Positions 33,511 through 36,228 of a stretch of 64,000 bases of DNA are shown here, in pieces (positions within the stretch are counted from its first letter, which is position 1; each line of letters begins with the position of its first letter). Made by a program: the position numbers and the translations under genes. Source of the DNA: a virus; IMG/VR virus record IMGVR_UViG_3300042890_000947, positions 22,230 through 86,229 of that record; one strand, given 5' to 3'. Under the pieces are notes generated by a model that saw nothing but the letters and a program-made list of their open reading frames with translations, was not told the DNA's origin and did not search any database.

Positions 33511-33586
33511 GGCGGATAGGACAAAGAAGGTAAGTCGTCGGTCTCATAAGCCGAAGGAGTTGGGGCAGATCCAACATCCGCAACCA
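33511..33586 (+). tRNA. tRNA-CAT, initiator-like with atypical T-loop
   Basis: 1:72 mismatch; TCGGT-CTCATAA-GCCGA; T-loop GGCAGAT. Confidence 0.7.
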
Positions 33587-33886: not shown

Positions 33887-33978
33887 GCATTCGTATCCCC
33901 CTCCGCTACGAACGGAGAGAAAGGTAACTGGAAATGGTATAACAACTAATGCAGGTTCGAATCCTGTCGAATGCTCCA
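33887..33978 (+). tRNA. Non-canonical tRNA-Arg(ACG) lacking a D-arm at the normal position
   Basis: GCATTCG/CGAATGC-T-CCA; CTCCG-CTACGAA-CGGAG; long variable region; GCAGG-TTCGAAT-CCTGT. Confidence 0.7.
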
Positions 33979-33994
33979 TTAAAGGAAAAAATTA

Positions 33995-34342
33995 ATGAAG
34001 CTTATTAAAACTTTAATTGCTACATCATTTTTATTTGTGGCAATGCCTTCTGCTCATGCTACCGTTGCTTCCTGGTATGATTGTGTGAAACCGGGTGAAT
34101 GTAGTAAGAGCAAGATTACTGCTAACGGGGAAAGATTTAACCCCAATGCGTTGACAGCGGCGCATAAGACTCTTCCTTTCGGTACAAAAGTTCGTATTAC
34201 CTATAAGGGAAGGTCAGTTGTCGTGAGAATAAATGATCGCGGCCCATTTATTAAGGGTCGTCATATTGATCTTTCCAGGGCTGCTGCTCGGAAGATTGGA
34301 TGTCATGGAGTTTGTAAAGTACAAATAGCTGTGATAAAATAA
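33995..34342 (+). CDS. RlpA-like double-psi beta-barrel lytic transglycosylase
   Basis: Signal peptide; [31 protein letters not shown]. Confidence 0.9.
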
Positions 34343-36009: not shown

Positions 36010-36208
36010 GCCGATTCCGACGGGAATCGGTCGAGTGCAAGGAAATGGCTGGACGCAAAGACCGGCTAACTTGGCTAGATGGTGTGGTGCCCGCGCGTGA
36101 TCTACGAGAGTAGAAGACGTGTCGTTTCCGACCAAGAAAATCTAGGCTGTCGCGTTGAACAGGTATCTGGGCCGTGACTTGTGGGTGTACCCGAATCCCA
36201 CCTCACCT
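36010..36208 (+). ncRNA. Candidate ~200-nt multi-stem ncRNA
   Basis: GCCGATTCC-GACG-GGAATCGGT, TGGCTGG/CCGGCTA, CTAGAT/ATCTAG, CTAC-GAGA-GTAG, GTGGG/CCCAC. Confidence 0.5.
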
Positions 36209-36228
36209 TATTAACTATAGGAGCATTA

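What the first reader, a model, noticed from the sequence alone, without database searches (positions are those of the whole stretch)
33887..33978. tRNA-Arg(ACG) with the D-arm apparently relocated 3' of the anticodon arm
Seen: only TATCCCC separates acceptor and anticodon stems, while a ~33-nt variable region holds D-loop-like AAAGGTAACTGGA whose GGA can pair with the 5' TCC. Acceptor, anticodon and T arms are intact, and it is the only CGN decoder in an otherwise complete set. Inference: a rewired, non-cloverleaf but functional tRNA architecture.
Basis: partly seen in the sequence, partly recalled or inferred. Interest (0 to 1): 0.75.

Follow-up and report, generated by a model that had tools for sequence, protein, structure and literature searches.

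The report
Phage arginine tRNA with re-threaded D-arm
This 92-base gene in a lake phage's tRNA cluster is very probably a working arginine tRNA that is not a cloverleaf: one strand of its D-stem and its D-loop lie after the anticodon arm, a layout shared by some 200 different phage tRNA genes that gene finders miss.

Summary
Window 33887-33978 (+) has a 7-bp acceptor stem, a 7-nt linker, an intact ACG anticodon arm, a D-loop-like stretch, a small hairpin, a canonical T arm, a discriminator and an encoded CCA. ARAGORN and Rfam's tRNA model do not call it.

It is not a one-off. A covariance model built here verifies 201 distinct sequences (282 copies, 243 loci), almost all inside phage tRNA arrays. 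About ten cultured phages carry unannotated copies; their hosts span Proteobacteria and Actinobacteria, plus one crAss-like phage.

- **Structure.** Covariation supports every helix.
- **Identity.** The base after that GG is A in 152 of 153 arginine members and U in 31 of 32 isoleucine members, as in canonical tRNAs of the same loci.
- **Anticodons.** Nearly all are Arg or Ile (including CAU); one is CUU.

Function (charging, decoding) is inferred, not shown. I found no paper describing this. This scan has found the same family before on other DNA (8 earlier notes), and my tests agree with them. Verdict: a real new structural variant of tRNA, of high interest.

The parts
33887..33893 (+). Acceptor stem, 5' strand (7 nt)
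   Evidence: Pairs with 33968-33974. All 7 pairs show changes on both sides in 70 relatives, 99.8% of cells paired.
33894..33895 (+). U8-A9 equivalents
   Evidence: T and A are invariant in alignment A2.
33896..33900 (+). 5' linker U-CC-CC. It is the 'down' strand of the re-threaded D-stem: 33897-33898 pair with 33923-33924, and 33900 pairs with 33919.
   Evidence: CC:GG is replaced in relatives by CG:CG, CGG:CCG, CAC:GUG, CAG:CUG, CUC:GAG, GC:GC. In an independent scan the linker holds CG in 66 of 66 members and the third pair is paired in 65 of 66. Pair 14:33 of A2: CG 41, GC 10, UG 2, other 17.
33901..33917 (+). Anticodon arm: 5-bp stem and 7-nt loop CUACGAA, anticodon ACG at 33908-33910
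   Evidence: All 5 stem pairs show changes on both sides.
33918..33922 (+). A-rich joiner after the anticodon stem (AGAAA), with G33919 pairing to C33900
   Evidence: Length and sequence vary among relatives (about 3 to 12 nt in the parsed members, A-rich). Covariation of its 2nd and 3rd bases with the linker: AC/GU, AG/CU, GC/GU.
33923..33924 (+). GG, the 'up' strand of the re-threaded D-stem
   Evidence: See the linker entry.
33925..33932 (+). Relocated D-loop U-A-A-C-U-G-G-A, read as (U), A14, A15, C16, U17, G18, G19, A20
   Evidence: UAA and GG are near-invariant. Indels fall only between AA and GG: 79 CU, 26 UU, 12 U and others. The last base is A in 152 of 153 Arg members and U in 31 of 32 Ile members.
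33933..33950 (+). Connector with a small hairpin (33935-33938 with 33945-33948), ending in A-U (U48 equivalent at 33950)
   Evidence: RNAfold predicts the hairpin. Relatives have 4-5-bp hairpins with compensatory changes, or a hairpin-less connector of 3-10 nt. 'Position 15/48' combinations: A/U 190, G/C 3, A/C 2, G/G 1.
33951..33967 (+). T arm: 5-bp stem and loop UUCGAAU
   Evidence: 4 of 5 pairs change on both sides. GUUC.A of the loop is invariant in A2.
33968..33974 (+). Acceptor stem, 3' strand
33975..33978 (+). Discriminator U and encoded CCA
   Evidence: CCA is encoded in 106 of 112 Arg members of the first set and in 17 of 45 of the second set.

Best explanation
The gene encodes a working tRNA-Arg(ACG) with a re-threaded core.

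**Order of parts**
- Canonical order: acceptor 5' strand, U8-A9, D-stem strand 10-13, D-loop, D-stem strand 22-25, anticodon arm, variable loop, T arm.
- Order here: acceptor 5' strand, U8-A9, a linker that acts as the 22-26 strand, the anticodon arm, an A-rich joiner, a 2-3-nt strand that acts as 10-13 and pairs back to the linker, the D-loop (A14 A15 Y16 U17 G18 G19 A20), a connector ending in U48, the T arm.

**Proposed fold (inferred)**
- The linker helix stacks on the anticodon stem and restores the long arm of the L.
- The relocated G18-G19 dock on the unchanged T-loop to form the elbow.
- U8-A14 and A15-U48 close the core.

**Proposed action (inferred)**
- The RNA is cut out of the phage tRNA-array transcript like its neighbours.
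- The host ArgRS charges it, reading C35, G36 and the A20 equivalent.
- TadA deaminates A34.
- It then reads CGU, CGC and CGA, about half of this phage's arginine codons.

**Shown:** the sequence layout, the helices (by covariation), conservation of the tertiary and identity bases, and the genomic context.
**Inferred:** the 3D fold, processing, charging, editing and decoding.
For: **1. Large family with the same layout.** R1 verifies 201 distinct sequences, 282 copies, in 243 loci.

**2. Covariation.**
- On 70 members, 94.8% of cells are paired against 66.2% in shuffles. When the partner is slid, 34-42% are paired. 17 of 21 pairs change on both sides. Results on A4 are similar.
- The linker helix is backed by many compensatory types.
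- A scan that fixed only its 3' strand confirms it: the linker holds CG in 66 of 66 members. The third pair is paired in 65 of 66 (G:C 49, C:G 11, U:A 3, A:U 1, U.G 1).

**3. Core bases kept.**
- U8, A9, UAA, GG and the T-loop GUUC.A are invariant or nearly so.
- Indels fall only in the part of the D-loop that also varies in canonical tRNAs.
- The 15/48 pair covaries: A/U 190, G/C 3, A/C 2, G/G 1.

**4. Identity bases follow the anticodon.**
- The base after G18-G19 is A in 152 of 153 Arg members, U in 31 of 32 Ile members and U in 9 of 10 CAU members.
- The discriminator is A in 42 of 42 Ile plus CAU members.
- Among 1635 canonical tRNAs of the same loci the pattern is the same: Arg A in 65 of 79, Ile U in 45 of 65.

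**5. Context.**
- The median distance to the nearest canonical tRNA is 10 nt, and 163 of 171 loci hold 3 or more canonical tRNAs.
- Here it lies 5 nt after tRNA-Cys.

**6. It fills a gap.**
- The record has no other CGN tRNA.
- CGU+CGC+CGA make up 478 of 924 Arg codons in 73 ORFs.
- A canonical Arg(ACG) lies in the same fetched locus for only 4 of 137 rewired ACG copies.

**7. Weak expression hint.** Contigs from RNA libraries cover 33890-34035 (run X17). A relative's gene appears in 4 runs of 3 studies.
Against: - No direct evidence of a mature RNA with defined ends, of aminoacylation, of I34 or of ribosome use. The RNA-library contigs cannot show transcription, and the tool warns that DNA may be present.
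- Single-sequence folding is not distinctive: z-score -1.23, and 24 of 200 shuffles fold at least as well.
- The linker helix is only 2-4 bp. In the window's own subtype it is invariant CC:GG, so its support comes from relatives.
- Pair 13:34 is unpaired in 55 of 70 members, so the junction with the anticodon stem is irregular.
- Some phages carry a canonical Arg(ACG) as well: Zooman, DLP6, and 4 of 137 at locus level. For Ile(GAU), 7 of 18 do. So the rewired copy is not always needed to fill a gap.
- Loci are partial, so the locus-level co-occurrence counts understate co-occurrence.
- My scan patterns fixed parts of the motif (CCCC and/or AAGGUAA; AAGGUAAYUGG plus the T arm; CGUAAYUGG plus the T arm). 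Invariance of those positions is therefore partly by construction.
Confidence: 0.75

Rival explanations
1. A tRNA-shaped decoy that is not used in translation. It might be a sponge or bait for a host tRNA-targeting nuclease (anticodon nuclease), or for TadA or ArgRS. It would keep the anticodon arm and overall shape without needing to decode.
For: The anticodon loop is the best-conserved part. Phage tRNAs that counter tRNA-cleaving defences are known (abstract of PMC11555353 seen in the listing). Some phages carry a canonical tRNA with the same anticodon next to the rewired one.
Against: A decoy does not need several features that are all conserved: a 7+5-bp acceptor/T branch, a discriminator that follows the anticodon class (A in 42 of 42 Ile plus CAU members), an encoded CCA, and an ArgRS/IleRS-type base at position 20 that follows the anticodon. 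In most loci it stands in the place of the canonical gene: a canonical ACG is present for only 4 of 137 copies. In this phage it would leave half of the Arg codons without a phage tRNA.
Confidence: 0.12
2. A precursor that is rearranged after transcription (cut and religated, or spliced) into an ordinary cloverleaf tRNA, as happens with permuted or intron-holding tRNA genes.
For: Gene-level rearrangements of tRNAs that are repaired at the RNA level exist in a red alga and in archaea (recalled, not from a call). Some T4-like phages carry RNA ligase and repair enzymes (recalled).
Against: The acceptor 5' and 3' strands already lie at the two ends of the gene. Circularisation or removal of a single insert therefore cannot restore the canonical order. 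It would need two cuts and a transposition of the 10-21 segment. The helix between linker and relocated strand is kept by compensatory changes, which makes sense only if the RNA functions in the order encoded. No intron-like conserved element is present: the connector can be as short as 3-5 nt.
Confidence: 0.03
3. A decaying tRNA pseudogene or a recombination scar in a tRNA array.
For: Phage tRNA arrays hold pseudo-tRNAs; for example 'tRNA-Pseudo' entries are annotated in DLP6. One relative (L060) looks chimeric, with a long insert.
Against: 201 distinct sequences keep all helices through compensatory changes, with about 95% of cells paired. They occur in phages of hosts from several phyla. 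Pseudogenes do not covary.
Confidence: 0.02
4. A structured RNA with another role that merely reuses tRNA modules. Examples: a processing signal for the array transcript, a primer, or a regulator that binds a phage protein.
For: tRNA-like modules serve such roles elsewhere (recalled).
Against: The anticodon repertoire is coherent: Arg and Ile boxes, 195 of 196 parsed. It is coupled to synthetase identity bases. The anticodon loop keeps U33 and a purine at 37. Nothing but decoding explains why the anticodon and position 20 change together.
Confidence: 0.05

Closest known systems
Canonical class I bacterial/phage tRNA-Arg(ACG) (cloverleaf, Rfam RF00005)
   Same: 7-bp acceptor stem; 5-bp anticodon stem with loop C-U-A-C-G-A-A; 5-bp T stem with a T-loop of the usual type; U8, A14, R15/Y48 and G18-G19 equivalents; A after G19, as in 65 of 79 canonical Arg tRNAs of the same loci; discriminator plus CCA; a place in a tRNA array.
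   Different: No D hairpin between position 9 and the anticodon arm. One D-stem strand and the D-loop lie 3' of the anticodon arm, and the other strand is the 5' linker, so the secondary structure is not a cloverleaf. RF00005 does not match it, nor does ARAGORN.
D-armless mitochondrial tRNAs of animals (e.g. tRNA-Ser(AGY), nematode tRNA-Ser)
   Same: Only a short linker lies between the acceptor and anticodon stems. Standard tRNA finders tuned to cloverleaves miss them.
   Different: Those tRNAs have lost the D-loop and are short and flexible (passages of review PMC7609411 seen). Here the D-loop, G18-G19 and a canonical T-loop are all kept, the RNA is 76-96 nt long, and the setting is bacterial translation.
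Circularly permuted tRNA genes of the red alga Cyanidioschyzon merolae (recalled, no call)
   Same: The order of tRNA segments in the gene departs from the canonical order.
   Different: There the 3' half precedes the 5' half and processing restores a normal cloverleaf. Here the ends are in their normal places and an internal segment is transposed, so the mature RNA itself must be non-cloverleaf.
allo-tRNAs and (8/4), (9/3) tRNAs of bacteria and phages (Mukai et al., PMC5389517; passages seen)
   Same: Natural non-canonical tRNAs found in metagenomes and phage tRNA clusters. UAU and Arg-box anticodons are frequent among them.
   Different: Those keep the cloverleaf order and differ in acceptor and T stem lengths and in a long variable arm. 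This family is 7/5 with a re-threaded D-arm.
Engineered E. coli tRNA with a non-canonical fold (PMC11551756; only the listing and the start of the abstract seen)
   Same: It addresses whether bacterial translation can use a tRNA that is not a canonical cloverleaf.
   Different: It is an artificial system based on a D-arm-lacking tRNA. [quoted passage not shown]

Membership tests
Canonical cloverleaf tRNA (Rfam RF00005) | Score at or above the family's gathering threshold (29 bits) | tested here: not met
   No RF00005 match on the + strand at 33887-33978 even at E<=10, nor at E<=0.01. Of 16 relatives tested, 14 have no match and 2 reach 30-33 bits.
Canonical cloverleaf tRNA (Rfam RF00005) | D-arm hairpin between position 9 and the anticodon arm | tested here: not met
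   Only 5 nt follow U8-A9 before the anticodon stem. The same holds in all parsed members, whose linkers are 5-6 nt.
Canonical cloverleaf tRNA (Rfam RF00005) | 7-bp acceptor stem, 5-bp anticodon stem with a 7-nt loop (U33, purine 37), 5-bp T stem with a T-loop | tested here: met
   Covariation.
Canonical cloverleaf tRNA (Rfam RF00005) | Core tertiary bases U8, A14, R15-Y48, G18-G19 with the T-loop 55-56 | tested here: inconclusive
   Bases that fit each role are conserved, and 15/48 covaries: A/U 190, G/C 3. The contacts themselves need a structure.
Functional tRNA-Arg (substrate of ArgRS) | C35, G36/U36 and A20 as identity bases (identity set recalled from the literature) | tested here: met
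   Anticodon ACG. A follows G18-G19 in 152 of 153 Arg-anticodon members and in 65 of 79 canonical Arg tRNAs.
Functional tRNA-Arg (substrate of ArgRS) | Aminoacylation, A34-to-I34 editing, decoding on the ribosome | not testable with these tools
   Needs bench work. RNA-library contigs show presence at most.
   76.3 bits, E 4e-17, model positions 1-81. Canonical tRNAs of the window score at most 28.5 bits.
D-armless mitochondrial-type tRNA | Loss of the D-loop and of the D-loop/T-loop elbow, and a shortened molecule | tested here: not met
   A D-loop-like UAACUGGA and a canonical T-loop are present, and the length is 92 nt.
Permuted tRNA gene restored by processing | The 3' half lies upstream of the 5' half, and the acceptor strands are internal to the gene | tested here: not met
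   The acceptor strands lie at the two ends of the gene.
allo-tRNA / (8/4), (9/3) tRNAs | Acceptor stem of 8-9 bp with a T stem of 4-3 bp | tested here: not met
   7 bp and 5 bp.

The most novel reading that the evidence does not exclude
These are charged, ribosome-active tRNAs that reach an L-shape through a strand topology never described for a tRNA, and the re-threading is itself an adaptation. It would let a phage keep arginine and isoleucine decoding running while cloverleaf tRNAs are being destroyed, either by a host tRNA-targeting defence or by the phage's own attack on host tRNAs. It would be confined to Arg and Ile because only synthetases that read the anticodon plus a D-loop base tolerate the new core.
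Probability: 0.2. Interest if true: 0.95.

Novelty: new variant of a known kind. Interest (0 to 1): 0.85.

Why it matters
The cloverleaf is taken to be universal outside animal mitochondria. A 2024 paper opens its abstract with the statement that all known bacterial tRNAs are canonical (listing).

A natural, widespread phage tRNA class would matter in four ways, if it keeps every functional module but connects them in another order:
- **RNA folding.** It would show that the L-shape can be reached through a different strand topology.
- **A natural test.** It shows which parts of the tRNA core ArgRS, IleRS, RNase P, EF-Tu and the ribosome really need.
- **Annotation.** Phage tRNA sets are under-counted. 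ARAGORN overlaps 3 of 201 copies, and all cultured-phage copies I looked at are unannotated. That distorts codon-usage and host-dependence analyses.
- **Engineering.** It offers candidate orthogonal scaffolds for genetic-code work.

Tried and rejected
Rejected. The base before CC varies without any change in that A, and the compensatory changes involve the first GG.
- **Single-sequence thermodynamics.** Not informative: z -1.23.
- **Rfam.** No family explains the gene. The only overlapping matches are weak chance hits: Plastid-ycf2 on the minus strand at 18 bits, freshwater-2 at 17.9 bits.
- **blastn of an Ile member against cultured phages.** It found only 1 record. blastn of 80-nt queries is insensitive, so the count of cultured carriers (about 13 records) is a lower bound.
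- **Scan of 185,579 species' genomes.** 5 loci, all on MAG contigs. R1 confirmed 4 of them inside dense tRNA arrays, and 1 (L222) had no R1 match. I read these as phage or prophage DNA, not as cellular use, but did not test that.
- **'Always replaces the canonical gene'.** Rejected as a rule. Zooman and DLP6 carry both forms. At locus level both occur for 4 of 137 ACG, 7 of 18 GAU and 1 of 17 UCU copies.
- **'Arg and Ile only'.** Nearly so, but one member has anticodon CUU (L300). The ten CAU members could be Met or Ile2. I favour Ile2 because they share U at position 20, A73 and near-identical bodies with UAU members, but this is not shown.
- My first position-20 tally was wrong, because the regular expression caught an earlier UAAGG; one search corrected it. 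Two 'Arg' exceptions (L177, L132) were mis-parsed Ile members. 3 of 136 sequences, truncated at a contig end, were dropped from the counts. 5 of 201 were unparsed.
- **RNA runs.** Stretches of the window without cover in the four metatranscriptomes say nothing either way.
- **Literature.** Seven searches and passages of three papers gave no description of this layout. The catalogue of 8,495 candidate structured RNAs from IMG/VR (PMC10690425, passages seen) mentions tRNA-like candidates, one of which sometimes overlaps tRNA-Arg calls.
- **Not attempted.** No 3D modelling tool for RNA was on hand. Complex prediction, structure prediction and the protein searches were not used.
Full report
**1. 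What is at the site**

Read directly, window 33887-33978 (+) holds, in order:
- a 7-nt strand (33887-33893) that pairs perfectly with 33968-33974
- U-A
- five bases, U-CCCC
- a 5-bp stem with the loop CUACGAA (anticodon ACG, 33908-33910)
- AGAAA
- GG
- UAACUGGA
- an 18-nt connector with a small hairpin, ending in A-U
- a 5-bp T stem with loop UUCGAAU
- the acceptor 3' strand, U, and CCA

It starts 5 nt after tRNA-Cys, inside an array of 29 ARAGORN-called tRNAs. ARAGORN does not call it. Rfam's tRNA model does not match it even at E<=10. On its own the sequence does not fold better than shuffles (z -1.23), so the case rests on comparison.

**2. It is a member of a large family**

- blastn against cultured phages found the same layout, unannotated, in the tRNA arrays of Xanthomonas phages X1 and BUDD and Rhizobium phage RHph_I1_18.
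- Four pattern scans of IMG/VR returned 71, 108, at least 118 and at least 119 contig stretches.
- I built a covariance model, R1, from 70 members. It separates the family from canonical tRNAs. The window gene scores 76.3 bits, against at most 28.5 bits for the window's other tRNAs.
- Over 300 fetched loci R1 gives 282 matches: 201 distinct sequences in 243 loci. Many contigs carry two to four members.
- Further cultured carriers, none annotated at the site:
  - Stenotrophomonas phages DLP6, CM1 and RAS14
  - Xanthomonas phages Xoo-sp13 and XacN1
  - Mesorhizobium phage Cp1R7A-A1
  - Microbacterium phages Zooman and Pumpernickel
  - crAss-like phage cr130_1
- A scan of one genome for each of 185,579 prokaryote species found only 5 loci, all on MAG contigs. 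R1 confirmed four of them, and these lie in dense phage-style tRNA arrays.

**3. Secondary structure**

*The three standard helices.* On the 70-member alignment:
- the acceptor stem (7 of 7 pairs), anticodon stem (5 of 5) and T stem (4 of 5) all show changes on both sides
- 94.8% of cells are paired, against 66.2% in shuffles and 34-42% when the partner is slid

The model-fitted alignment A4 agrees, with the caveat that it leans toward the model's structure.

*The linker helix.* The new element is a short helix between the 5' linker and the bases just before an invariant UAA.
- In the window's subtype it is CC:GG and never varies.
- Other subtypes have CG:CG, CGG:CCG, CAC:GUG, CAG:CUG, CUC:GAG, GC:GC, CCU:AGG and ACC:GGU.
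- In 23 members the strand before UAA does not end in GG. All 23 have at least 2 anchored pairs and 18 have at least 3. When the linker letters are shuffled, a mean of 7.3 members (maximum 15, 1000 trials) reach 3 pairs.
- The cleanest test is the scan, which fixed only CG on the 3' strand, the D-loop motif and the T arm. It yielded 66 distinct members. The unconstrained linker holds CG in 66 of 66. The next pair, unconstrained on both sides, is paired in 65 of 66 (G:C 49, C:G 11, U:A 3, A:U 1, U.G 1).
- In the window's subtype, two more positions next to the anticodon stem covary in part: AC/GU, AG/CU, GC/GU. Pair 14:33 is CG 41, GC 10, UG 2, other 17. Pair 13:34 is unpaired in 55 of 70.

CC pairs with the first GG.

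**4. The stretch after that helix is a D-loop**

- It reads U-A-A-(0-3 nt, mostly CU or UU)-G-G-N. Length changes fall only between AA and GG. In canonical tRNAs that is the variable part of the D-loop (established knowledge).
- N follows the anticodon: A in 152 of 153 Arg members, U in 31 of 32 Ile members, U in 9 of 10 CAU members.
- I checked the same position in 1635 distinct canonical tRNAs called by ARAGORN in the same loci. It is A in 65 of 79 Arg tRNAs and rare elsewhere, and U in 45 of 65 Ile tRNAs. A20 as an ArgRS identity base is recalled from the literature. The match to canonical tRNAs comes from my own count.
- The base two after U ('position 15') and the last base before the T stem ('position 48') co-vary: A/U 190, G/C 3, A/C 2, G/G 1. 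This is as expected of the 15-48 tertiary pair.
- U8, A9 and the T-loop GUUC.A are invariant in the 70-member alignment.
- The discriminator is A in all 42 Ile and CAU members, and U, G or A in Arg members.

**5. Model**

*Shown.* The segment that in a cloverleaf lies between positions 9 and 22 (D-stem strand 10-13 plus the D-loop) sits after the anticodon arm. The 5' linker supplies the other D-stem strand and runs straight into the anticodon stem.

*Inferred.*
- The linker helix stacks on the anticodon stem, rebuilding the long arm.
- The A-rich joiner takes the place of the variable loop along it.
- G18-G19 meet the T-loop at the elbow.
- U8-A14 and A15-U48 close the core.
- The connector (3-10 nt, or a hairpin as in the window) leads to the T stem.

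All modules that processing enzymes, synthetases, EF-Tu and the ribosome touch would then be in their usual places in space, although not along the chain.

**6. Evidence that it decodes**

- The record's tRNA set covers all 20 amino acids but has no other CGN reader.
- In 73 ORFs, CGU+CGC+CGA are 478 of 924 Arg codons and AGA is 334. These are the two groups served by the rewired ACG and the canonical UCU tRNAs.
- Family members lie a median of 10 nt from the nearest canonical tRNA.
- A canonical tRNA with the same anticodon lies in the same fetched locus for 4 of 137 ACG, 7 of 18 GAU and 1 of 17 UCU copies. Loci are partial, and DLP6 and Zooman carry both forms, so replacement is common but not a rule.
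- Anticodons among the 196 parsed members are ACG 87, UCU 44, UAU 17, GAU 15, UCG 10, CAU 10, CCU 9, GCG 2, CCG 1 and CUU 1. That is Arg and Ile boxes almost exclusively.
- Contigs of four metatranscriptome runs (three studies) hold either this gene (33890-34035 in X17) or a close relative's gene. RNA libraries can contain DNA, so this is only a hint.

**7. Rivals**

- *Decoy for a tRNA-directed nuclease or enzyme.* It would not need the acceptor/T branch, CCA, or discriminator and position-20 bases that track the anticodon.
- *Precursor rearranged to a cloverleaf.* This is excluded in practice. The gene's ends are already the acceptor strands, and the encoded order is itself kept by compensatory pairing.
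- *Pseudogene.* Excluded by covariation across 201 sequences.
- *Non-decoding structured RNA.* It does not explain the coupling of anticodon and identity bases.

I put the functional-tRNA reading at about 0.75.

**8. Comparison with what is known**

- It works like a class I tRNA-Arg, but it fails two defining features of the cloverleaf family: a D hairpin before the anticodon arm, and an RF00005 match.
- It differs from mitochondrial D-armless tRNAs, which have lost the D-loop (passages of PMC7609411).
- It differs from permuted tRNA genes, where the halves are swapped and processing restores the order (recalled).
- It differs from allo-tRNAs and 8/4 or 9/3 tRNAs (passages of PMC5389517).
- Seven full-text searches found no description.
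- A 2023 catalogue of candidate structured RNAs in IMG/VR (PMC10690425, passages) may contain it unnamed. I could not see its figures or supplements.

**9. Earlier notes of this scan**

A word search shows that first readers and follow-up agents met the same family at least eight times on other genomes. They reached the same reading and likewise found no paper. Those notes are not independent evidence. I reproduced their core claims here from the sequences:
- the relocated D-loop and D-stem strand
- more than a hundred phage homologs
- genes missed by tRNA finders

Points I tested that do not appear in the summaries I saw:
- the Ile and CAU members
- the position-20 and discriminator signatures, with the canonical control
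- the 15/48 covariation
- the independent test of the linker helix

**10. Verdict**

This is a real, conserved, phage-borne tRNA with a re-threaded core: a new structural variant of a known kind. Function is inferred from strong comparative evidence. The bench tests listed under decisive next steps would settle it.

Noticed in passing
window 33511-33583 (+): A tRNA with anticodon CAU that Rfam's tRNA model finds at 35.5 bits but ARAGORN does not list. Its T-loop departs from the usual sequence.
   Followed up: partly
window 36013-36209 (+): A match to Rfam manA RNA (RF01745) at 58.1 bits, above its gathering score of 55.2, inside the tRNA array.
   Followed up: no
Model R1 does not match them at E<=1. 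I did not study them.
   Followed up: no
L300:11000-11080 (-): The one family member whose anticodon is neither Arg nor Ile: loop CUCUUAA, anticodon CUU (Lys box), with U at position 20 and discriminator A. It scores 77.9 bits with R1. The same contig carries three more rewired members.
   Followed up: partly
L060:2993-3122 (+): A family member with a long insert before the T arm that contains a second ACG-anticodon-like hairpin, and an acceptor 3' strand that does not match its 5' strand. It looks like a recombinant or fused pair.
   Followed up: no
L008:2708-2789 and L041:5042-5123 (+): Members whose T-loop reads GGCAACU instead of the usual UUCRANY, while the rest fits the family (80 bits).
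   Followed up: no
L197 (Microbacterium phage Zooman) 650-722 and 794-872; L224 (Stenotrophomonas phage DLP6) 24741-24814, with the rewired copy at record 111158-111250: A canonical tRNA-Arg(ACG) and a rewired Arg(ACG) coexist in one phage. In Zooman they lie only about 70 nt apart.
   Followed up: partly
L244, L323, L331, L338 (hits of the pattern): The pattern also hit 3' ends that look like tmRNA genes on viral contigs: a tRNA-like T arm and acceptor strand preceded by a tag-like region. ARAGORN also called a tmRNA in Rhizobium phage locus L003 951-1274.
   Followed up: no
window 33997 onward (+): The ORF that starts 19 nt after the gene begins with a signal-peptide-like stretch. The same ORF start follows the rewired tRNA in several related IMG/VR contigs, so the neighbourhood is syntenic.
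   Followed up: no
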